Shown: positions 49 to 9,095 of the stretch, piece by piece
Layout of the letters: each line of letters starts with the position of its first letter
Numbering within the stretch: position 1 is the first letter of the stretch
IMG/VR virus record: IMGVR_UViG_2534681655_000016
DNA: 9,095 nt
Source: a virus
Lineage: Duplodnaviria > Heunggongvirae > Uroviricota > Caudoviricetes
Strand: one strand, 5' to 3'
Translations under genes and position numbers: made by a program
The notes under the pieces: model-generated
What the model saw: only the letters and a program-made list of their open reading frames with translations
Told to the model about the DNA's origin: nothing
The model's database searches: none

Positions 49-570
49 ATGTCAAAGCCAAAATACCCTTTTGAAAAGCGCCTTGAAGTCGTGAATCACT
101 ACTTCACAACTGATGATGGTTACAGGATCATCTCGGCACGTTTTGGTGTCCCCCGAACCCAGGTCAGGACATGGGTTGCCCTCTATGAAAAACATGGAGA
201 AAAAGGTTTAATTCCCAAACCTAAAGGCGTTAGTGCTGATCCAGAGTTGCGTATTAAGGTCGTGAAAGCTGTGATCGAGCAGCACATGTCCCTTAATCAG
301 GCTGCTGCTCACTTTATGCTTGCTGGTAGTGGTTCTGTAGCCAGGTGGCTGAAGGTCTATGAAGAGCGCGGAGAAGCTGGTTTACGCGCGCTCAAGATTG
401 GCACCAAAAGAAACATTGCAATATCAGTTGATCCAGAAAAAGCGGCATCAGCATTGGAGCTGTCAAAAGACCGACGCATTGAGGATCTTGAAAGGCAAGT
501 TCGATTTCTTGAAACGCGGCTTATGTATCTAAAAAAGCTGAAAGCCTTAGCTCATCCCACGAAAAAGTGA
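49..570 (+). CDS. insJ: IS150 transposase OrfA (InsJ), helix-turn-helix DNA-binding protein
   Basis: 173-aa ORF starting at ATG 49. The translation MSKPKYPFEKRLEVVNHYF... matches recalled IS150 InsJ. It ends in the TGA at 568..570, overlapping the orfB start. Confidence 0.9.
   Translation: MSKPKYPFEKRLEVVNHYFTTDDGYRIISARFGVPRTQVRTWVALYEKHGEKGLIPKPKGVSADPELRIKVVKAVIEQHMSLNQAAAHFMLAGSGSVARWLKVYEERGEAGLRALKIGTKRNIAISVDPEKAASALELSKDRRIEDLERQVRFLETRLMYLKKLKALAHPTKK
531..537 (+). other. Programmed -1 ribosomal frameshift slippery heptamer A-AAA-AAG (orfA to orfB fusion site)
   Basis: The sequence aaaaaag at 531..537 is phased as A AAA AAG in the insJ reading frame, near the 3' end of orfA. This is the canonical IS3-family/IS150 frameshift motif. 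Confidence 0.6.
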
Positions 571-1417
571 AAGTACTCAACGAGCTAAGGCAGTTTTATC
601 CTCTTGATGAGCTTCTCAGGGCTGCGGAGATACCGCGCAGTACGTTTTATTATCATCTAAAGGCTCTCAGCAAGCCTGACAAGTATGCGGACGTTAAAAA
701 GCGTATTAGTGAGATTTATCACGAGAATAGAGGCCGATACGGATACCGTAGGGTAACGCTGTCTCTTCATCGAGAAGGGAAACAGATTAACCATAAAGCT
801 GTTCAGCGCCTGATGGGAACCCTCTCACTTAAAGCAGCGATTAAGGTCAAGCGATACCGCTCTTACAGAGGAGAGGTAGGGCAAACCGCCCCTAATGTTC
901 TCCAAAGAGATTTCAAGGCTACGCGGCCAAACGAGAAGTGGGTTACCGATGTTACTGAATTTGCAGTCAATGGGCGCAAGCTGTATTTGTCTCCAGTAAT
1001 AGATCTCTTCAACAACGAAGTTATTTCTTACAGCCTTTCGGAAAGACCAGTGATGAACATGGTTGAGAATATGCCGATCAGGCATTCAAAAAGCTTAATC
1101 CTCACGAGCATCCTGTTCTGCACTCTGACCAGGGATGGCAGTATCGTATGAGAAGATATCAAAATATCCTTAAAGAACATGGTATTAAACAAAGCATGTC
1201 CAGAAAAGGCAATTGTCTGGATAATGCTGTGGTGGAGTGTTTCTTTGGAACCTTAAAGTCGGAGTGTTTTTATCTTGATGAGTTCAGTAATATAAGCGAA
1301 CTGAAGGATGCTGTTACGGAATATATTGAATACTACAACAGCAGAAGAATTAGCCTGAAATTAAAAGGTCTGACTCCAATTGAATATCGGAATCAGACCT
1401 ATATGCCTCGTGTTTAA
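567..1417 (+). pseudogene. insK: IS150 transposase OrfB (InsK, DDE catalytic domain), disrupted by an apparent 1-bp deletion near 1074
   Basis: The ORF track splits the expected ~283-aa protein into 567..1151 and 1148..1417. The first piece ends ...[29 protein letters not shown], while the same DNA read one frame over gives ...[30 protein letters not shown], containing the conserved HSDQG motif. This is consistent with loss of one base between atgc and cgatcagg (1071..1080). It starts at GTG 567. Confidence 0.75.
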
Positions 1418-1443
1418 CTGTCCAACTTTTTGGGGTCAGTACA

Positions 1444-2385
1444 CTGGAAGGCTTTCATCCAGAAACAGTCAAAGTGGAAAACATGCAGCGGCAGATTGCG
1501 TTCCGCCATACCATCGATAAAGCTGTTTACCGTCGCTTCGTCGTAGTTGGTGGTAAATGAAGTGGTTAGCCACAGGCCGAAGGACCACGCGGGCGGCAGC
1601 GCCGGACGACCAGTAAAGCGGGTATAACGATCAAGTACCGCTTTCGGCGTCGGGCCGTCGATAACAAAGTATTCGAGATATTCACTCTCAACGCTGAACT
1701 GCACTTTGGAGACTTTCTCCGATCCCACTTCAAAAGAGACACACTGGGGATGATTGACCAGTACCCCATAACCACGGTTAGTCATGTAGAACGGGATATT
1801 TTTATACGCCTGTTCAGTACTTGTGCCGCCGTCCCGGTTCCAGGTCTCTACCGTCTGGCCATTGCGCACCAGGGCAGTAAAGCGCTCTCCCAGACCGTAA
1901 ACTGTTTCGCCAACGCCAAGATCAAGCCGCTCAAACATATAATTGCGTTGATTATTCGTGTCCTGCACGTAGCCATTATTTTTCACCTGACTACCGGTAA
2001 TACGTTCGCCGTTGCGCAGAAAATCCAGTGACCAGAACTCACCTTTGCTGACACGCGCGCTTAAGTTGCCACTTTTAAACTCAGCATAACGTTCTGTGTT
2101 TTCGATTGTGACCTTCACGTCCTGCAAAATATTGAGCGGGTAATGAGGACCGTTATTCAGCGCCCCCTGAAAATGCTCAATCCGCACACCGACAATACCT
2201 TCCTGTGGGGAGAAAAAGCGCAGCGTAAATAAAGGCGTGTCAAGCTGCCAGGTACGTTCACGTACATCACGGGGGGCAGCATAGACCACCATTTCATTAT
2301 CCTGCTGTTCAACCTCGAACACCTGAAGCGGGTGAATCAAATTGAGGCCAGGTTGAATCAACCAGTTTCCATCGCTAATTTTCAT
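1444..2385 (-). pseudogene. yicI: 5' fragment of alpha-xylosidase gene yicI (glycoside hydrolase family 31), truncated by the IS150 insertion
   Basis: The minus-strand ORF starts at ATG 2385 ([25 protein letters not shown]...) and matches the YicI N-terminus. After about 314 native codons the frame crosses the IS150 right end at 1443/1444 and terminates inside the IS (tail CTDPKKLDS*). Full-length YicI is about 772 aa, so the C-terminal part including the catalytic region is missing here. Confidence 0.85.
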
Positions 2386-2394
2386 TGCCGTTCC

Positions 2395-3777
2395 TTAGTT
2401 CTGCACTTCTTGAGAGGTGAATTGTTGCTGGCAACGGCGTTTACCCTGAGCCAGCTGTTCCATAACGGTTTTCAGATTGTGCGTCGTGAGTGAGTAGTAG
2501 CGTTTAGCGATAATCGCGCTCAGCAAATAACAGATCGCCGGAACAATCGTGAATAGCGCAATAATGATGCTAATCGTGGCGCTGTTCTGCGCTTTTTCTG
2601 CCGCATCATATCCGCCATAAGCCAGCATCCAGCCGATAAGAGCGCCGCCGAAGGCCAACCCCAGTTTGAGCACAAACAGCGTGCCAGCAAAACTGATCCC
2701 GGTCAGGCGTTTACCATTGCACCACTCGCCGTAGTCGACGGTATCGGACATCATTACCCACTGGATAGGTGTCACCAGTTGATGCAACACACCAATCACG
2801 AAGATGAAGACAAACATAGTGATGCTGGCCTGCATGGGAACAAAGAACATCGCGAGGCTAATCACTGCCAGCAGGGCGTTCGTCCACCAGAAGATAGTGA
2901 CTTTACATTTCCAGTCGGTCAGAGGTTTTGCCAGTGCGGAACCAATCAGGTTACCCACGCAATAAGTGGTGAGAAAAGCGACAAACACTTCCGGCGTGCC
3001 CAAAATCCATGTGACGTAATACATCATCGCCCCACCGCGTACGCACACCGCCAGGATATTGAAAATGGTTAGTAAACCGACAATCCGCCACTGGTCGTTT
3101 TGCCAGATATCACGTAAATCTTCCCGCATAGACGTTGTTGTAGGTGGTGCTTCAACGCGTTCTTTAGTGGTGAAGAAACAAAATGCCAGCATCATGAATG
3201 CCACCACGGAAAGGACCGCGATACCGCCCTGGAAACCGAGTGGTTTATTATCACCGCCAATTAAATTAACCAGTGGCATCATCAGAACAGTAGAAAGCAT
3301 GCCTCCCGCGGTCGCCAGCACAAAACGCCAGGATTGCAGCGAGATACGCTGAGTCGGGTCATTGGTGATTACACCACCCAATGCGCAGTAAGGGATATTG
3401 ACGACGGTATAAAGTAAGGTAAGTAGGGTGTAAGTAATTGCTGCATAGATCATTTTGCCGTTCATACTGAGATCTGGCGTGCTATAGGCCAGTACACAGA
3501 CGATCCCGAATGGCAGTGCGCCAAACAGTACCCACGGACGAAATTTACCCCAGCGAGAGCGCGTTCGATCGGCCAACAACCCCATGCAAGGATCGGAAAT
3601 CGCATCCAGTGCACGAGCGACCAAAAACATGGTTCCGACAAAACCGGCAGGAATGCCAAAAATATCGGTATAAAAGAACATCATATATAACATTACGTTA
3701 TCGAAAATAATGTGGCTGGCGGCGTCTCCCATGCCATAACCAATTTTCTCTTTAACGGACAACACTTCACTCTTCAT
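2395..3777 (-). CDS. yicJ: Sugar (glycoside-pentoside-hexuronide family):cation symporter, YicJ
   Basis: Long hydrophobic multi-TM ORF whose translation from MKSEVLSVKEKIGYGMGDAASHIIF... matches YicJ (460 aa). I chose ATG 3777, which has a GAGGAA ribosome-binding site 6-8 nt upstream, over the ORF-track start at 3834. Its stop lies 9 bp upstream of the yicI start, giving operon arrangement yicJ-yicI. Confidence 0.9.
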   Translation of the reverse strand: MKSEVLSVKEKIGYGMGDAASHIIFDNVMLYMMFFYTDIFGIPAGFVGTMFLVARALDAISDPCMGLLADRTRSRWGKFRPWVLFGALPFGIVCVLAYSTPDLSMNGKMIYAAITYTLLTLLYTVVNIPYCALGGVITNDPTQRISLQSWRFVLATAGGMLSTVLMMPLVNLIGGDNKPLGFQGGIAVLSVVAFMMLAFCFFTTKERVEAPPTTTSMREDLRDIWQNDQWRIVGLLTIFNILAVCVRGGAMMYYVTWILGTPEVFVAFLTTYCVGNLIGSALAKPLTDWKCKVTIFWWTNALLAVISLAMFFVPMQASITMFVFIFVIGVLHQLVTPIQWVMMSDTVDYGEWCNGKRLTGISFAGTLFVLKLGLAFGGALIGWMLAYGGYDAAEKAQNSATISIIIALFTIVPAICYLLSAIIAKRYYSLTTHNLKTVMEQLAQGKRRCQQQFTSQEVQN

Positions 3778-4032
3778 CTGCTTTTCCTCGATGCTATAGG
3801 GGTGCTGAGACCGATAACGCATTTTGTAAACCATCCCTGTGAGAGCGAATATTCCGATATCTGGTTATTAATTTATGATTCTTGTTTTATGTGATCGTGG
3901 TAGCGTTAATTCCGCTCATATATCATTGTAAAATATGGGTTTTATATGAACTATAATGCTTTCGTGATAATACGCTGCGTGTATTAGGCGGAAAAAACTG
4001 ATCTGGGGGATGTAGAAACTCAAGGAAGTAGC

Positions 4033-4069: not shown

Positions 4070-4164
4070 GGAAGATCGTCGTCTCCGGTGAGGCGGCTGG
4101 ACTTCAAATCCAGTTGGGGCCGCCAGCGGTCCCGGGCAGGTTCGACTCCTGTGATCTTCCGCCA
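4070..4164 (+). tRNA. selC: tRNA-Sec (selenocysteine tRNA, anticodon UCA), 95 nt, ending in CCA
   Basis: GGAAGATCGTCGTCTCCGGTGAGGCGGCTGGACTTCAAATCCAGTTGGGGCCGCCAGCGGTCCCGGGCAGGTTCGACTCCTGTGATCTTCCGCCA matches recalled E. coli selC. It has the long extra arm typical of tRNA-Sec and the anticodon TCA at 4104..4106. Confidence 0.92.
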
Positions 4165-4326: not shown

Positions 4327-5505
4327 ATGGCCCTAACCGATATACAGATCAAACGTGCAAAACCACAAGACAAACCATACACATTAAACGATGGGCAAGG
4401 TCTGTCATTGCTTATCAATCCCGATGGCTCGAAAGGCTGGCGTTTCCGTTTCCGGTTTGCAGGGAAAGCGCGGTTAATGTCATTTGGCAGCTACGATTTA
4501 GTAAGCCTCGCAGAAGCACGTGAGAAACGCGATACGGCTCGTAAGCAGGTAGCAAACGGCATTGATCCAGTAGCAGAGCGTAAGGCTCAGAAAATTGCTC
4601 AGAAATTATCAACTGAAAACTCTTTTGAGGCCGTTAGCAGAGAATGGCATGCAGCAAAAGCAGATCGCTGGACTTTAGCTTATCGCGAAGAAATTATTAA
4701 AACATTTGAACAGGATGTTTTTCCTTTCATTGGTAAACGGCCAATAGCTGAAATTAAACCCCTAGAACTGCTTGAAGTTCTTAAACGCATAGAAAAACGT
4801 GGAGCGTTGGAGAAAACCAGAAAAGTACGTCAACGATGCGGAGAGGTGTTTCGCTACGCGATCATCACTGGCCGCGCTGAATACAATCCAGCACCTGATT
4901 TAGCTATCGCATTAGCTGTACCGAAGCAAAAACATCATCCTTTTCTATCAGCAGAAGAACTCCCTCATTTTGTCAGAGATCTTGAGGCTTACACAGGTAG
5001 CATAATCACTAAAAATGCAACTAAAATTGTGATGCTTACTGGAGTCAGGACACAGGAAATGCGTTTTGCCACTTGGGACGAAATTGATTTACAAAAAAAG
5101 GTATGGGAAATACCGGCCGAACGAATGAAAATGCGCCGACCACATCTTGTACCACTCTCCACTCAAGTAGTTGAAATTTTTCAACAACTCAAGCTAATCA
5201 CCAAAAACTATCCATATATTTTTATCGGCCGTAATAATCACACTAAGCCAATTTCTAAAGAAAGTGTATCCCAAGTAATAGAATTACTTGGCTATAAAGG
5301 AAGAGCTACGGGCCACGGATTCCGCCATACAATGTCTACTATTTTGCATGAGTACGGATTTAACAGCGAATGGATAGAGTTACAATTGGCTCATGTTGAT
5401 AAGAATAGTATTCGAGGCACTTATAATCATGCCCAATATTTAGAAAAGAGAAGTTCTATGATGCAGTGGTACAGTGATTATATCCTTAATAGAGATAAAG
5501 CATAG
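4327..5505 (+). CDS. int: P4-type tyrosine recombinase/integrase (site-specific integrase of the selC-inserted satellite)
   Basis: 392-aa ORF starting 163 bp after the selC 3' end. The N-terminus (MALTDIQIKRAKPQDKPYTLNDGQGLSLLINPDGSKGWRFRFRF...) is the arm-binding region typical of P4-like integrases. The C-terminus carries catalytic-type residues in GHGFRHT, LAHV and RGTYNH (R...H..R..Y). Confidence 0.9.
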   Translation: MALTDIQIKRAKPQDKPYTLNDGQGLSLLINPDGSKGWRFRFRFAGKARLMSFGSYDLVSLAEAREKRDTARKQVANGIDPVAERKAQKIAQKLSTENSFEAVSREWHAAKADRWTLAYREEIIKTFEQDVFPFIGKRPIAEIKPLELLEVLKRIEKRGALEKTRKVRQRCGEVFRYAIITGRAEYNPAPDLAIALAVPKQKHHPFLSAEELPHFVRDLEAYTGSIITKNATKIVMLTGVRTQEMRFATWDEIDLQKKVWEIPAERMKMRRPHLVPLSTQVVEIFQQLKLITKNYPYIFIGRNNHTKPISKESVSQVIELLGYKGRATGHGFRHTMSTILHEYGFNSEWIELQLAHVDKNSIRGTYNHAQYLEKRSSMMQWYSDYILNRDKA

Positions 5506-5560
5506 AATAATAGAAGTTAATGCTGTATACTGTAAATTAACAATATAGTAAGGATTGAAA

Positions 5561-6427
5561 ATGAAGAAGACAGTACTTATAACTGATTTAGATAACACAC
5601 TATTCGACTGGTTTAGCGTTTGGTATCATAGCTTTAATGCAATGCTAAATAAAGTCGTTGAGATTTCCGGTTTTTCTAAAGACGAGCTTATTGCACAGAT
5701 AAAACCGATTCATCAAAAATATGGTACTGCCGAATACTCTTTTATTCTAGAAAGCATACCTCTTTTACAAGAAAAATATGGTGATAGAAACTCCATCAAT
5801 TTAGTTATGGATGATGCTATACACGCTTTCAGAAGTGAGAGAAAGAAATATCTTTCTCTGTACCCAACAGTAATGGACACTTTGAGTGTATTAAAAAGTA
5901 AAGGGTGTTATATTGTCGCGTATACTGAATCCAAAGCTTATTACTCCAATTTCCGCTTAACAAGATTAGGATTAGATGGTGTGATTGATGTCCTTTTCTC
6001 TCCTGAAGATCATGAAATCCCTGATGGTGAGAAAAAACAAGATAAATATAATCTAATGCTGACAAAGCAAGAATATACACCTATTGATGAAATTAAACCA
6101 AACCCACAACTTCTTCTGGACATAATAAAATCAATTGGTGCCACACCAGAAGAGTGTGTATATATAGGTGACAGTGAAATGAAAGATATAGAAATGGCCC
6201 AAAAAGCAAACGTATCAGATGTTTTTGCAAGCTATGGAACGAATCATTTTGAAGAGAACAAGGAGGGATATGAATTACTCCGTGCGGTAACCCACTGGAC
6301 TGATGCTGATGTTGAAAGGGAAAGAAAAATTAAAGAAAATGCCTTCGGAGCAAAACCCACATATGTAGCCAAACAATTTTCAGATATTTTGTCTTTTTTT
6401 GAATTTACCAAATTTAAAGGAAAATAG
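5561..6427 (+). CDS. HAD-superfamily (haloacid dehalogenase-like) hydrolase/phosphatase, cargo gene 1 of the satellite hotspot
   Basis: All four HAD motifs are present in order: motif I LITDLDNTLFDW (DxDxT), motif II IVAYTES, motif III conserved Lys in IKPNP, motif IV GDSEMKD (GDxxxD). There is a cap-like insertion between motifs I and II. An AAGGA ribosome-binding site lies 8 nt before ATG 5561; the ORF track's TTG at 5555 is less likely. The gene is very AT-rich compared with the flanks. Confidence 0.8.
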   Translation: MKKTVLITDLDNTLFDWFSVWYHSFNAMLNKVVEISGFSKDELIAQIKPIHQKYGTAEYSFILESIPLLQEKYGDRNSINLVMDDAIHAFRSERKKYLSLYPTVMDTLSVLKSKGCYIVAYTESKAYYSNFRLTRLGLDGVIDVLFSPEDHEIPDGEKKQDKYNLMLTKQEYTPIDEIKPNPQLLLDIIKSIGATPEECVYIGDSEMKDIEMAQKANVSDVFASYGTNHFEENKEGYELLRAVTHWTDADVERERKIKENAFGAKPTYVAKQFSDILSFFEFTKFKGK

Positions 6428-6428
6428 A

Positions 6429-7061
6429 ATGAACAATCTAGAATTAAAGAAACATGATGACGCTATAAAATTAGAAAATCTCAAGTTGAAAATTGATATC
6501 TGGAAGACAGTTGTTGACGTTCAGAAACATTTTAATGATCTTGAGATGAAGGTTAGAAACTTCGGAATTTTGATCTTGTCTGCATTTATTGGTGCAATTG
6601 GTGTAAGCTTTAATTCCGGCGCTGAATTTATAGCCTTTGGCAATCATTACTCTGTTGCTGCCATTCTTGCTTTCGGGGCATCTGTTGTTTGGTTGTTATT
6701 TTATTTTGTTGACGTTTACTGGTATCACCCATTACTTCTTGGAGCTGTAAAGAAAGGTTCAGAACTCGAAAAAGAAATTGCATCCGACATCCCAGGAATT
6801 AATCTTACAGAAACCATAGGAAAAAGTAGCCCAAAAGATATTTTGCTCTGGAAAAATATGCATAGTACTGGAAAAGCTAACCTTTTCTACTTTGGGGTTT
6901 TAGCTGTTCTGTTAACTATTTTTATTTCTCTACTGTGCTTTAAATCCCCGCAAAAGACAAATCAACTAAATGAATTAAATATTAAAGCAAATTGCACTAG
7001 AAACAGTAATTACAATGGAGTTAATTGCATTATCGCATCACAGCCAAGTGACAACAAATAG
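6429..7061 (+). CDS. Small membrane protein with a charged, coiled-coil-like N-terminal domain and three predicted transmembrane helices, cargo gene 2
   Basis: ATG 6429 lies 1 nt after the HAD stop (TAG 6425..6427), with an AAGGA ribosome-binding site inside the upstream gene's 3' end, suggesting translational coupling. The protein has three hydrophobic segments: FGILILSAFIGAIGVSF, YSVAAILAFGASVVWLLFYFVDVYWY and FYFGVLAVLLTIFISLLCF. The N-terminal ~45 aa are Lys/Glu-rich. No enzymatic motif was recognised. Confidence 0.75.
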   Translation: MNNLELKKHDDAIKLENLKLKIDIWKTVVDVQKHFNDLEMKVRNFGILILSAFIGAIGVSFNSGAEFIAFGNHYSVAAILAFGASVVWLLFYFVDVYWYHPLLLGAVKKGSELEKEIASDIPGINLTETIGKSSPKDILLWKNMHSTGKANLFYFGVLAVLLTIFISLLCFKSPQKTNQLNELNIKANCTRNSNYNGVNCIIASQPSDNK

Positions 7062-7151
7062 TGCACTTTATCACTCTTTACCCCAACTGCATGTACTTAC
7101 CTTGTGAGCACAGAGACGCGCTATAAATAAACACTTTACTGCTGGCGGGCG

Positions 7152-7170
7152 GTGCTTTCCCCGCCTCGCC
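7152..7170 (-). other. cos: P2/P4-type cos site (19-nt cohesive-end sequence GGCGAGGCGGGGAAAGCAC) with flanking 7-bp inverted repeats
   Basis: The plus strand reads GTGCTTTCCCCGCCTCGCC, the exact reverse complement of the recalled P2/P4 cohesive end. It is flanked by inverted repeats GCGGGCG (7145..7151) and CGCCCGC (7171..7177). Its position downstream of psu matches the P4 genome map. Confidence 0.7.
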
Positions 7171-7271
7171 CGCCCGCTTTGCGGGGCGGTTTTAATGCAG
7201 TTGCACTGACACGCTCAGGCCGCGCCGGGAATGGCGCGGTCTGCAGAAAATGAGGCAGGAAAACGCATGCA

Positions 7272-7306
7272 AAGCCATGCACCTTATCGATGCATGGCTT
7301 TTTTCA
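7272..7306 (+). terminator. Rho-independent terminator-like hairpin (10-bp perfect stem AAGCCATGCA/TGCATGGCTT, 9-nt loop, then a T-run)
   Basis: Perfect inverted repeat at 7272..7281 and 7291..7300, followed by TTTT (6 T's counting the stem end). It lies between the convergent cargo operon and psu. The plus-strand orientation is canonical; the minus strand has a weaker U-tract. Confidence 0.5.
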
Positions 7307-7334
7307 GTAAAAACGGGCGGATTTTCGGGGAATT

Positions 7335-7907
7335 TTACACAGACTGACGTGATGCCAGTTGCGCACTTTTACGCGAAAAAATCATGTTCTGCGCAGGGGT
7401 GAATTTTTCACGGCTGTCATCCACCGAAGCCGCGTCAGGCCTGAATCCGATGGTCGTTAAAATGTCGCTATCCTGTGCGGAATAATTAATTTTTTCCCCC
7501 TTCGCAAGCCAGGACAGAAGGGCTTCACGCAGGGCATCTGTGGCACGCTGTATGGCACAGTTTCGGGCAATGGCCGTCAGCTCACTGTAGCCCATCAGCT
7601 CCGGTGCCAGTGCCGCCGCCAGTGCTGTGCCGTGCTGCTGCATAAAATCATTCAGCCGGTCGCGGATGCTGATGTGCTGAACGGCTTCATGCGAACGAAT
7701 ATAACGACCGGCAGCCTGATTCACCTGCCATTTTCTGACTTCGATAATATTGCGTAATTCGTCCAGGCGACTGACGTTTCTGCCTTCCCCGGACAGAAGC
7801 CGCAGATATTCCTGTTCGGCCGCAGCCAGCTCATTTTTGCGTTGCAGCCATGCTGCTTTGTTATTCTGACAGGTGTCAAAGGCCTGCTGTAAGGCTGTGC
7901 TTTCCAT
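7335..7907 (-). CDS. psu: P4 Psu (polarity suppression / capsid decoration protein)
   Basis: 190-aa ORF whose length and sequence (MESTALQQAFDTCQNNKAAWLQRKNELAAAEQEYLRLL...) match recalled phage P4 Psu. It is the last gene of the sid-delta-psu late operon. Confidence 0.88.
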   Translation of the reverse strand: MESTALQQAFDTCQNNKAAWLQRKNELAAAEQEYLRLLSGEGRNVSRLDELRNIIEVRKWQVNQAAGRYIRSHEAVQHISIRDRLNDFMQQHGTALAAALAPELMGYSELTAIARNCAIQRATDALREALLSWLAKGEKINYSAQDSDILTTIGFRPDAASVDDSREKFTPAQNMIFSRKSAQLASRQSV

Positions 7908-7980
7908 CGTTATCTCTTTCTCATCATGCTGAAGAATAAAAATACGGTGTGCGGCGACGGCCGGGGTTAACCGGCAGCCC

Positions 7981-8481
7981 TCATTCCAGACGCAGCGAAT
8001 ATGATTGTGTTTTTAACCGTACTGGCGGCAGTTCCTGTTTTTCATGCAGGCGTTCTGCCAGTTCGTCCGGTGTGACCGGGCGGACAATGAAGCGGTTGAT
8101 GGTCTGAAGCGTTTTAAACACCAGACCACAGCCCGGATCCGTGCACACATAAAAACGTTCGGTGACTTCCTGAGACAGACGCCGCGATGTTCTTGACAGT
8201 GCAAGGCCTTTACATCTCCGACAACAATATCCGGTAACAAGCATTCTTTTCGGGCGTTTCATACTGCCGGAGGCAGAAGTCAGTGAATCGCGGTATCTCT
8301 GTTTGCCTGAAATGTATTCCATTCCTGAATCTTTACAGTCAGAGAAAAAGCTTTCACTCGCTTCAAATGTCGCAGAGCAATAAATATTCCGGCACTGTGC
8401 AATCATTATCTTGGTGCCATCGTCCATGAAATGTGCGCGGCGGGTGTGAGCAACATGTCCACACGACGGGCAGTAAATCAT
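7981..8481 (-). CDS. delta: P4 Delta (Ogr-like tandem zinc-finger late-gene transcriptional activator)
   Basis: 166-aa ORF with two Cys-rich Ogr-like repeats (CPSCGHVAHTRR...C...C and C..C......CTDPGCG). Its size matches P4 delta. The ATG overlaps the sid stop in an ATGA arrangement at 8478..8481. Confidence 0.88.
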   Translation of the reverse strand: MIYCPSCGHVAHTRRAHFMDDGTKIMIAQCRNIYCSATFEASESFFSDCKDSGMEYISGKQRYRDSLTSASGSMKRPKRMLVTGYCCRRCKGLALSRTSRRLSQEVTERFYVCTDPGCGLVFKTLQTINRFIVRPVTPDELAERLHEKQELPPVRLKTQSYSLRLE

Positions 8482-9095
8482 GACAGCAGTCCTCTGGCCT
8501 TAAGCTCTGCACCCTGCTGGTCTATTTTGTCCTGCCACACCTTGCGCTGTGCCGGTGTGCCTGCCACCTCATAATCCATGTGCGGGAGTGTTGCCGCTGA
8601 CAGTCCGGTCAGCCGGAGAACCGGCTCGCCGGTGAGGCTGATTTGCATCTGTTTTATTTTCTGTTCCAGCGATGATTTCACCTGCTGCATGACAGCTTTA
8701 TCGGGTGCGACGTAGCCCTGATGCCCGGTGGTGTTGGCGAGCGGATTTTCCTGTACCAGAATGCTCAGATGCATTGCCCGGACAAGCGCCTCACAGGTTT
8801 CATTCAGGGCGTGTTCCAGCTCATGCTCTGCATACAGACTCAGAGGTGATGATGTGCCTTCCGGTAGGCGGTGGCCGTGCTGTCACACGCCCCTTTCAGG
8901 CGTTCACGTTCGAAATTCAGCACCACGGCCAGATTGTCATATTCCTGTACCAGCTCCCGGCGTGCCACGCGCTCAATGTGGCGCTGTTTCAGCTCGTCGC
9001 TCAGGACACCACCGGCTGCACGAAAGGCCGTGCGCCAGTCGTCAGCGTCGTTTCCGTCGGCCTGCGCCAGCGCATTTTTTTCCTGCTCTGCCCGT
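8478..9095 (-). pseudogene. sid: P4 Sid (capsid size-determination external scaffold), apparently frameshifted; the 5' end lies beyond the window
   Basis: The C-terminal part is in the frame ending at TGA 8478..8480 and is open back to a stop at 8883..8885. The N-terminal part (RAEQEKNALAQADGNDADDWRTAFRAAGGVLSDELKQRHIERVARRELVQEYDNLAVVLNFERERLKGACDSTATAYRKAHHHL*) is in a different frame, running from the window edge to a TGA at 8840..8842. The two frames overlap at 8843..8882 and their combined length fits the ~244-aa Sid, implying a 1-bp indel there. Confidence 0.7.

What the first reader, a model, noticed from the sequence alone, without database searches (positions are those of the whole stretch)
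5561..6427. The HAD hydrolase has a complete catalytic motif set and a cap insertion, so it is probably an active phosphatase/nucleotidase-type enzyme
Motif I (DLDNT, with the nucleophilic and general acid/base Asp residues), motif II (Thr/Ser in IVAYTES), motif III (Lys in IKPNP) and motif IV (GDSEMKD) are all present in canonical order and spacing. The insertion between motifs I and II is consistent with a C1-type cap that dictates substrate choice. Active HAD phosphatases in mobile-element cargo could plausibly act on nucleotides (dNMP/NTP pool depletion), on modified-nucleotide precursors, or on a phosphorylated signal. The ~70-aa C-terminal extension beyond motif IV (...THWTDADVERERKIKENAFGAKPTYVAKQFSDILSFFEF...) has no obvious motif and could be the regulatory or interaction region.
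Basis: partly seen in the sequence, partly recalled or inferred. Interest (0 to 1): 0.6.

Follow-up and report, generated by a model that had tools for sequence, protein, structure and literature searches.

The report
Known Metis type II phosphatase MisB
The gene is a real, intact HAD-type phosphatase, but it is already known: this exact protein pair is a published anti-phage system, and the phosphatase is thought to act as its safety valve by destroying a methylated-nucleotide alarm signal.

Summary

It is not new. This protein and the 3-TM protein encoded one base downstream (6429-7061) are 100% identical to the "Hydrolase + 3TM" system of E. coli 2862600, which Rousset et al. 2022 showed blocks phage T7. 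Osterman et al. 2025 (bioRxiv) assign that operon to type II Metis, as MisB plus MisC.

In Metis, MisB removes the phosphate from N6-methyl-dAMP, the signal released when a phage degrades Dam-methylated host DNA. This stops the effector (here the membrane protein MisC) from firing without infection. Catalytic-dead MisB still defends.

So the enzyme call is right. The implied effector role, and the proposed refutation test, are wrong.

The "C-terminal extension" is really core strands beta5 and beta6 plus a conserved helical insert (VTHW motif) that type I MisB also has.

- MisC follows MisB in 74 of 80 related loci.
- In 11 of those loci MisB and MisC are fused into one protein.

Novelty: already known. 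Interest: low.

The parts
5561..6427 (+). misB: HAD-IA phosphatase, 288 aa (predicted m6dAMP 5'-nucleotidase; the immunity or buffer component)
5585..5599 (+). HAD motif I, DLDNT (nucleophile D9, acid/base D11, T13)
   Evidence: Position. Conserved in 200/200 relatives. Lies at the end of beta1 in the model. Aligns with DLDDT of PH1655.
5600..5860 (+). C1 cap: five helices, about aa 14-100, carrying invariant W17, W21, T56, E58, Y59, R91, R94
   Evidence: Secondary structure from the AF2 model. Invariant columns in A1 and in the 200-sequence set.
5912..5932 (+). HAD motif II, IVAYTES (T122)
6002..6076 (+). Loop insertion between beta3 and motif III (aa 148-172), with invariant D150 and near-invariant H151; lowest model confidence (pLDDT about 76)
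   Evidence: Its length varies among relatives.
6092..6106 (+). HAD motif III, IKPNP (K179)
   Evidence: Aligns with the KPxP of PH1655, PH0459 and AlnB.
6167..6187 (+). HAD motif IV, GDSEMKD (D204, D209; the GDxxxxD variant)
   Evidence: Aligns with GDnpvkD of PH0459.
6245..6346 (+). Family-specific three-helix insert between beta5 and beta6 (aa 229-262), with the VTHW motif at aa 243-246 (the VTHWTD string spans nt 6287-6304)
   Evidence: Model helices 229-232, 234-243 and 248-260. H245 and W246 conserved in 197/201, and present in type I MisB. The Pfam Hydrolase_like match ends at aa 232.
6429..7061 (+). misC: 210-aa membrane effector with three TM helices (about aa 42-63, 76-98, 146-170); the start codon lies 1 nt after the misB stop
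   Evidence: PADLOC PDLC03009 E=6e-140. 100% identical to pFR97 protein 2. Hydropathy peaks. AF2 helices. No Pfam or NCBIfam family.
5411..5560 (+). Upstream region contained in the published functional clone (native promoter region)
   Evidence: The 399-nt prefix of the pFR97 insert matches window 5411-5809 exactly. No + strand sigma-70 consensus was found by the simple scan.
4327..5505 (+). P4-type tyrosine integrase: left border of the satellite's defence hotspot
   Evidence: Pfam Arm-DNA-bind_3, Phage_int_M and Phage_integrase.
4070..4164 (+). tRNA-Sec (selC): integration site of the satellite
   Evidence: ARAGORN. Same layout in E. coli E6.
7335..7907 (-). psu (polarity suppression protein): right border of the hotspot
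   Evidence: Pfam Psu E=1e-88.

Best explanation
The ORF is misB of a type II Metis anti-phage system. It is carried in the int-psu defence hotspot of a P4-like satellite integrated at selC.

Proposed mechanism:
1. MisB is a cytoplasmic, Mg2+-dependent HAD-IA phosphatase. Using D9 as nucleophile, it hydrolyses N6-methyl-2'-deoxyadenosine 5'-monophosphate (m6dAMP) to the inert nucleoside m6dA.
2. In uninfected cells it mops up the traces of m6dAMP released by DNA repair. This keeps the co-translated partner MisC, a 3-TM membrane protein that binds m6dAMP on its cytoplasmic side, switched off.
3. When a lytic phage such as T7 degrades the Dam-methylated host chromosome, m6dAMP rises far above what MisB can clear.
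4. MisC is triggered. It is predicted to form an oligomeric pore, and the infected cell dies without releasing phage.

MisB is therefore the threshold-setter or antidote, not the weapon.

Shown here: intact HAD catalytic machinery and fold; 100% identity to the validated E. coli 2862600 system; tight MisB-MisC linkage, including natural fusions.

Shown by others, on 40-50%-identical orthologues: m6dAMP phosphatase activity, Dam dependence, and the fact that MisB catalysis is not needed for defence.

Inferred for this exact protein: the substrate and the buffering role.
For: Identity. The window proteins equal pFR97 'Hydrolase + 3TM' proteins 1 and 2 residue for residue, and the clone's DNA prefix matches exactly. 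Rousset 2022 showed this clone inhibits T7. Osterman et al. 2025 name the E. coli 2862600 operon as MisB/MisC homologues. They report MisB dephosphorylating m6dAMP, Dam and denA dependence, MisC sensing m6dAMP, and defence surviving a MisB Asp mutation. RefSeq labels a 99.2%-identical locus misB/misC.

One family with type I MisB. The window protein is 40% identical over its full length to the E. coli P4-hotspot type I MisB, which lies next to a PUA-like plus Metallophos MisA. It is 43-46% identical to two other type I MisBs. The cap residues and the VTHW insert are shared.

Linkage. A MisC-like ORF lies immediately downstream, on the same strand, in 74 of 80 related genome loci across many phyla. 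Eleven of these are MisB-MisC fusions. Twelve of the top 120 protein clusters are such fusions.

Foreign origin. The two genes are 33-36% G+C, against about 44-57% in the flanks.
Against: No biochemistry exists for this exact protein. The in vitro assay used type I MisB from E. coli 401675. The genetics used a Phyllobacterium type II system. I could not obtain either of those two sequences for a direct comparison.

The mechanism paper is a preprint.

In Rousset's panel this system protected only against T7 and not T4, although T4 also degrades host DNA and is blocked by type I Metis (the type II system was tested against T6). This is unexplained.

I therefore could not verify which conserved cap or insert residues line a nucleotide pocket.
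Confidence: 0.82

Rival explanations
1. The HAD enzyme is itself the defence effector. On infection it strips phosphates from (d)NMPs or (d)NTPs and starves the phage of nucleotides, with the membrane protein acting as a sensor or anchor.
For: The catalytic site is intact. Nucleotide-depleting defences exist (established knowledge). Partial dNTP and NTP depletion was seen in infected type I Metis cells.
Against: In the published type I and type II systems the partner alone (MisA or MisC) defends, and catalytic Asp mutants of MisB keep full defence but become toxic. The authors attribute the nucleotide depletion in type I to secondary effects of NAD+ loss. HAD-IA monoester phosphatases are not known as triphosphate-pool depleters (established knowledge).
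Confidence: 0.04
2. The architecture and buffering logic are the same, but this E. coli variant is tuned to a different phosphorylated signal, for example another modified mononucleotide or a ribonucleotide. That would explain its T7-only phenotype.
For: The defence spectrum in Rousset 2022 was narrow. Identity to characterised orthologues is only 40-50%. The preprint itself anticipates Metis variants that sense other modified bases.
Against: The conserved cap and insert residues are nearly invariant across type I and type II members, including this one: W17, E58, Y59, R94, H245, W246. This suggests one shared ligand. E. coli's main DNA modification is Dam m6A, and the preprint's authors group this operon with type II.
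Confidence: 0.1
3. It is an ordinary housekeeping phosphatase, such as phosphoglycolate phosphatase (the name several databases give to relatives), that merely happens to lie in the island.
For: Source annotations say 'phosphoglycolate phosphatase' for several homologues. There are weak NCBIfam PGP hits.
Against: PGP equivalog scores are 38-47 bits against cut-offs of 180-225. The gene sits in a defence hotspot, is translationally coupled to misC, is linked or fused to MisC in 74 of 80 loci, and the pair was experimentally shown to block T7.
Confidence: 0.02

Closest known systems
Type II Metis (MisB + MisC), Osterman et al. 2025, bioRxiv 10.1101/2025.11.05.686725; the same system as 'Hydrolase + 3TM' / Rst_Hydrolase-3Tm of Rousset et al. 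2022 (PMC9122126)
   Same: Both proteins are identical in sequence to the E. coli 2862600 system, which Rousset cloned and validated against T7 and which Osterman et al. cite as MisB/MisC homologues. The gene order, P4 hotspot location and 3-TM partner all match.
   Different: Nothing at the sequence level. The mechanistic experiments (Dam dependence, m6dAMP toxicity, MisB and MisC point mutants) were done on the Phyllobacterium orthologue, not on this E. coli version. In that bacterial family, MisB is 45-49% and MisC 36-38% identical to the window proteins.
Type I Metis MisB (partner MisA: PUA-like + calcineurin-like NAD+ diphosphatase)
   Same: Same HAD family: 40-46% identity over the full length, the same catalytic motifs, the same conserved cap residues and the same VTHW helical insert. 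In E. coli it occupies the same P4 int-psu hotspot. This is the orthologue group whose m6dAMP phosphatase activity was measured in vitro.
   Different: The effector partner is the soluble NADase MisA, not the membrane protein MisC. No MisA is present in this window.
Capped HAD-IA phosphatases of known structure: PH1655 (2hoq), Thermococcus onnurineus HAD phosphatase (4ygq), human N-acetylneuraminate-9-phosphatase NANP/HDHD4 (2w4m), YfnB, phosphoglycolate phosphatases
   Same: Rossmannoid core, C1 helical cap, the four motifs and the GDxxxxD form of motif IV.
   Different: Only 15-27% identity. MisB has two extra elements, a loop at aa 148-172 and a three-helix insert at aa 229-262, plus its own set of invariant cap residues. 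NCBIfam equivalog cut-offs for PGP, YjjG and pyrimidine 5'-nucleotidase are all missed by a wide margin.

Membership tests
HAD superfamily, phosphatase type, subfamily IA (C1 cap) | Motif I DxDx(T/V) at the end of beta1 | tested here: met
   D9-L-D11-N-T13. Strand 5-9 in the model. Invariant in 200/200 relatives. Aligned to DLDDT of PH1655.
HAD superfamily, phosphatase type, subfamily IA (C1 cap) | Motif II Ser/Thr after beta2; motif III Lys; motif IV acidic pair after beta4 | tested here: met
   T122 follows strand 117-121. K179 precedes helix 182-191. G203-D204...D209 follows strand 199-203. All are conserved in 199-200 of 200.
HAD superfamily, phosphatase type, subfamily IA (C1 cap) | Rossmannoid HAD fold with a helical cap inserted directly after motif I | tested here: met
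HAD superfamily, phosphatase type, subfamily IA (C1 cap) | Mg2+-dependent phosphomonoesterase activity | not testable with these tools
   Needs enzymology. Reported for type I MisB of E. coli 401675.
MisB of Metis | Belongs to the MisB homologue cluster | tested here: met
   100% identical to the E. coli 2862600 protein that the Metis authors call a MisB homologue. 40-46% full-length identity to HADs adjacent to PUA-like + Metallophos MisA.
MisB of Metis | A misA (PF00149) or misC (TM protein) gene within two genes (the preprint's own criterion) | tested here: met
   The 3-TM ORF starts 1 nt after the misB stop. The same arrangement occurs in 74 of 80 related loci.
MisB of Metis | Dephosphorylates m6dAMP to m6dA | not testable with these tools
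   Inferred from orthologues only.
MisB of Metis | Catalysis is dispensable for defence but needed to prevent effector toxicity | not testable with these tools
   Shown for the E. coli 401675 type I and Phyllobacterium type II systems. Never tested for this operon.
Type II Metis system / PADLOC and DefenseFinder 'Hydrolase-3Tm' | Both component profiles matched, adjacent and on the same strand | tested here: met
   PDLC03008 E=6e-198 (1-288 of 288) and PDLC03009 E=6e-140 (1-210 of 210).
Type II Metis system / PADLOC and DefenseFinder 'Hydrolase-3Tm' | MisC has three membrane-spanning helices and is homologous to MisC of other type II loci | tested here: met
   Three hydropathy peaks. AF2 helices spanning 42-63, 76-98 and 146-170. 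BLASTP hits in 73 loci, including Aquamicrobium (E=2e-25) and Mesorhizobium (E=1e-26). Not compared directly with the Phyllobacterium protein, whose sequence I did not have.
Type II Metis system / PADLOC and DefenseFinder 'Hydrolase-3Tm' | Anti-phage activity that depends on host Dam and on phage-driven host DNA degradation | not testable with these tools
   Anti-T7 activity of this exact sequence is published. Dam and denA dependence was shown only for orthologues.
Phosphoglycolate phosphatase (Gph), the name given to relatives by some sources | Score above the NCBIfam equivalog cut-off | tested here: not met
   NF009695 scored 46.9 against a cut-off of 225. TIGR01449 scored 38.4 against 180.
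YjjG / pyrimidine 5'-nucleotidase HADs | Score above the NCBIfam equivalog cut-off | tested here: not met
   TIGR02254 scored 23.6 against 159.9. TIGR01993 scored 21.6 against 142.9. It probably works like a 5'-nucleotidase but is not a member of these families.

The most novel reading that the evidence does not exclude
MisB may not be a freely diffusing scavenger. It may work physically docked on the cytoplasmic face of the MisC oligomer. Natural single-chain MisB-MisC fusions occur in about 15% of related loci, and the preprint's main text does not mention them. Under this reading MisB would set a local firing threshold at the pore's m6dAMP site. The MisB-specific three-helix insert (aa 229-262, VTHW) and the loop at aa 148-172 would form an extra lid that reads the N6-methyl-adenine. 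Differences in this local gate would explain why the E. coli version responds only to T7.
Probability: 0.2. Interest if true: 0.35.

Novelty: already known. Interest (0 to 1): 0.15.

Why it matters
Metis is an interesting kind of immunity. The cell detects that its own methylated chromosome is being shredded, by sensing m6dAMP, and MisB sets the threshold between background DNA repair and a real attack. That was reported in 2025, and this exact gene pair was validated as a defence system in 2022. The finding therefore adds no new biology. Its value is as a correct annotation of the window: a type II Metis system in a P4-like satellite at selC. It also corrects the expectation that killing the phosphatase should abolish defence.

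Tried and rejected
- NCBIfam gave only sub-threshold hits (best TIGR02253 CTE7, 62.8 against a cut-off of 169.75) and no MisB-specific model. Source labels such as 'phosphoglycolate phosphatase' or 'FMN phosphatase YigB' were rejected on those scores.
- Direct sequence search of the PDB gave only weak partial hits, E about 1e-4 to 1e-8.
- Literature searches for 'Hydrolase-3Tm' and variants returned only catalogue mentions. The decisive lead was the misB/misC gene names in one RefSeq record, which led to the preprint.
- The MisC model (pLDDT 76.6) has no significant match in the PDB; the best E-value is 0.46.
- The simple promoter scan found no + strand sigma-70 consensus upstream of misB.
- The published reverse primer is not present exactly in the window. 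By eye, its site overlaps the hairpin at 7170-7189 with one mismatch.
- I could not retrieve the sequences of MisB from E. coli 401675 or from Phyllobacterium sp. UNC302MFCol5.2. The MisB of the HVH3 clone was also unavailable because the table cells are truncated. As type I comparators I used HADs found next to PUA-like + Metallophos genes.
- Model coordinates are not returned by the tools. I therefore made no geometric check of the active site and could not map which conserved residues face the pocket.
- The search of protein representatives and a MisC-wide homologue search were not run, because the answer did not depend on them.
- The locus sample was seeded with type II-derived peptide patterns and keeps only the 80 best matches. 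The 74-of-80 MisC association therefore overstates the share of type II in the whole MisB family.

Full report
WHAT IS IN THE WINDOW. From left to right, the 9,095-base window contains:
- an IS3-family element (49-1417);
- a truncated GH31 glycosidase gene (yicI-like, 1414-2385, minus strand);
- an MFS_2-family sugar transporter gene (yicJ-like, 2395-3834, minus strand);
- tRNA-Sec (4070-4164);
- a P4-type integrase (4327-5505);
- the HAD ORF (5561-6427);
- a 210-aa ORF starting one base after its stop codon (6429-7061);
- then, on the minus strand, psu (7335-7907), an Ogr/Delta gene (7981-8481) and sid.
This is a P4-like phage satellite integrated at selC. The two low-G+C genes (33-36%, against about 44-57% in the flanks) lie in the variable slot between int and psu.

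CHECK OF THE OBSERVATION. The ORF starts at ATG 5561 and encodes 288 aa. The four quoted strings are present at aa 9-13 (DLDNT), 118-124 (IVAYTES), 178-182 (IKPNP) and 203-209 (GDSEMKD). Pfam matches HAD_2 (E=7e-18), Hydrolase (E=2e-15) and Hydrolase_like (E=1.5e-8).

An AlphaFold2 model built on 40 homologues is confident (mean pLDDT 93.4, pTM 0.90). It places each motif where the HAD fold requires:
- D9 at the end of beta1;
- T122 just after beta2;
- K179 just before the helix that leads into beta4;
- D204 at the end of beta4.

CORRECTION ON THE C-TERMINUS. The 79 residues after motif IV are not an appended tail. They contain the canonical helix (206-215), beta5 (219-223, followed by the invariant Y225-G226), beta6 (268-270) and the terminal helix (273-279). 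About 34 residues forming three helices (229-262) are inserted between the two strands. The insert is not motif-free. V243-T-H245-W246, V251 and E254 are among the best-conserved positions of the family. A second family-specific element is a loop at aa 148-172, with invariant D150 and near-invariant H151.

IDENTITY. PADLOC matches both proteins end to end: 'Hydrolase' at E=6e-198 and 'Hydrolase-TM' at E=6e-140. Rousset et al. [quoted passage not shown] Their Table S2A lists clone pFR97, 'Hydrolase + 3TM', from E. coli 2862600. Both of its protein sequences are identical, residue for residue, to the two window ORFs. The printed 399 nt of the cloned fragment equal window 5411-5809.

Eight of 5,426 complete E. 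coli genomes carry the locus at 99.2% identity or more. One RefSeq record names the genes misB and misC. That name led to Osterman et al. 2025 (bioRxiv 10.1101/2025.11.05.686725).

WHAT THE LITERATURE SAYS IT DOES. All of the following comes from that preprint.
- Type I Metis is MisA (a PUA-like sensor fused to a calcineurin-like NAD+ diphosphatase) plus MisB (the HAD).
- m6dAMP is released when phages degrade Dam-methylated host DNA, and it activates MisA.
- Purified MisB dephosphorylates m6dAMP to m6dA and removes basal m6dAMP in vivo.
- MisA alone defends. MisB Asp mutants keep defence but slow growth and lower NAD+.
- Type II Metis replaces MisA with MisC, a 3-TM protein predicted to bind m6dAMP on its cytoplasmic side and to form an octameric ring.
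- The tested type II system (Phyllobacterium) needs Dam, is escaped by T6 denA mutants, and is triggered by m6dAMP added to the medium. It keeps defending when the MisB catalytic Asp is mutated.
- The authors state that the E. coli 2862600 operon of Rousset et al. encodes MisC and MisB homologues.

INDEPENDENT CHECKS MADE HERE. A scan of species-representative genomes returned 80 loci encoding relatives at 40-64% identity. They come from Proteobacteria, Actinomycetota, Acidobacteriota, Chloroflexota and other phyla. The partners were as follows:
- In 74 loci a MisC-like ORF lies directly downstream on the same strand. In 11 of these the two are fused into one protein with MisB at the N-terminus.
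- Two of the remaining six loci end at a contig edge.
- Two (L036, L075) have a PUA-like + Metallophos gene next to the HAD, so they are type I.
- One has a TM + TPR protein.
- One has only an N6_N4 DNA methylase nearby.

Twelve of the 120 best protein clusters are also MisB-MisC fusions. The sample is biased towards type II by the way it was seeded.

The E. coli type I system sits in the same hotspot of another P4-like satellite (strain PK6, at ssrA). Its MisB is 40% identical to the window protein over residues 3-277, including the ITHW insert. The other two type I MisBs are 43% and 46% identical. They keep W17, E58, Y59, R94, H245 and W246.

The window protein therefore belongs to a single MisB family whose members pair with either effector. 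The shared insert argues for a role in the enzyme itself, most likely substrate recognition. That role is my inference, and the insert is probably not a MisC-docking surface.

THE PARTNER. MisC shows three hydropathy peaks. Its AF2 model has moderate confidence (pLDDT 76.6). A long N-terminal helix runs into TM1 (2-63). A short hairpin follows, then TM2 continues into a cytoplasmic helix (76-117), then TM3 (146-170). Invariant residues cluster in the N-terminal helix (W25, K26, Q32, H34, F35, N36) and just after TM2 (D95, Y99, H100, G105, E114). Because MisB is fused to the MisC N-terminus in natural fusions, that end must be cytoplasmic. This fits the reported intracellular ligand pocket. No PDB fold matches MisC.

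MECHANISM, AND HOW SURE I AM. My best explanation, at confidence about 0.8, has three parts. MisB is an m6dAMP 5'-nucleotidase that keeps MisC silent until a phage shreds the chromosome. MisC then kills the cell. The pair is translationally coupled, with a 1-nt gap and an AGGA about 8 nt upstream of the misC ATG.
- Shown here: the intact enzyme, its identity to the validated system, and the tight linkage to MisC.
- Shown by others, on orthologues: the chemistry and the logic of the system.
- Inferred for this exact protein: the substrate and the buffering role.
- Unexplained: Rousset's panel included T4, yet protection was seen only against T7.

The enzyme call is correct, and so is the guess of 'a phosphorylated signal'. 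The implied effector role is not. The proposed refutation includes 'intact defence in catalytic-dead mutants'. That part would mislead, because it is the published phenotype of this family even where the enzyme has been shown to be active. The system is already described, so novelty is 'already known' and interest is low. The only small additions are the frequency of MisB-MisC fusions, the description of the C-terminal insert and its presence in type I MisB, and a few odd MisB neighbourhoods.

Noticed in passing
L004, L024, L040, L047, L050, L056, L059, L061, L069, L072, L073; proteins P0025, P0048, P0051, P0054, P0061, P0064, P0092, P0102, P0108, P0112, P0114, P0119: Natural single-chain MisB-MisC fusions (HAD at the N-terminus, 3-TM domain at the C-terminus; 449-547 aa). 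They occur in 11 of 74 type II loci and in 12 of the top 120 protein clusters. The Metis preprint's main text does not mention fusions. They imply that the MisC N-terminus is cytoplasmic and suggest the phosphatase acts next to the effector.
   Followed up: partly
window 8478-9095 (minus strand), indel near 8843: The P4 sid gene carries a 1-nt deletion relative to the 98.7%-identical copy in E. coli E6 (L001). The reading frame shifts after '...AYRKAHHHL', so sid looks like a pseudogene here, unless this is a sequencing error.
   Followed up: partly
window 49-1441: An IS3-family element (HTH_28 orfA; an orfB split into two ORFs, 567-1151 and 1148-1417, with the rve domain divided between them) interrupts the GH31 alpha-xylosidase gene yicI. 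yicI is intact in E. coli E6.
   Followed up: partly
window 7893-8467 compared with L001 8389-8649: In a satellite that is otherwise 99% identical, the Ogr/Delta segment is swapped. This window has a 166-aa two-finger Delta, while E. coli E6 has an 81-aa Ogr-like protein. This points to mosaic exchange inside the satellite.
   Followed up: no
window 7114-7334, including the G+C-rich hairpin at 7170-7189: The non-coding stretch between misC and psu matched more than 2,200 of 5,426 complete E. coli genomes in the search that used window 5506-7334 as query; in the records listed that lack the misBC locus the match is confined to this stretch. It contains the CCGCCCCGCAAAGCGGGCGG palindrome used as a primer site by Rousset et al. 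It is probably the conserved cos-proximal border of the P4 hotspot. The 'terminator-like' call is this palindrome.
   Followed up: partly
L082 4501-6956 (E. coli PK6, P4-like satellite at ssrA): A type I Metis (537-aa PUA-like + Metallophos MisA, plus a 279-aa MisB) occupies the same psu-int hotspot in another E. coli satellite. The first 268 nt of its misA are identical to clone pFR96 (E. coli HVH3), for which Rousset et al. detected no activity on their phage panel.
   Followed up: partly
L051 5201-6454; L080 4901-5926; L036 2614-3495: Unusual MisB neighbourhoods. In a Dehalococcoidia MAG, a protein with an N-terminal TM segment plus TPR repeats lies downstream of MisB instead of MisC. In an Acidobacteria MAG, only an N6_N4 DNA methylase lies next to MisB. 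In another Acidobacteriota MAG, a type I MisB/MisA pair is preceded by an N6_N4 methylase, which may correspond to the 'type III' idea of the preprint.
   Followed up: no
L065 4870-6482: In an Actinomycetota genome, misB and misC are separated by about 1.6 kb that holds an unrelated 369-aa ORF. It may be a mobile-element insertion. Not examined.
   Followed up: no
literature: PMC9122126 compared with bioRxiv 10.1101/2025.11.05.686725: The E. coli 2862600 system protected only against T7 in a panel that included T4. Type I Metis blocks T2, T4, T5, T6 and T7, and the Phyllobacterium type II system blocks T6. T7 plates were incubated at room temperature and the others at 37 C, so temperature or expression level could be the cause.
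   Followed up: no
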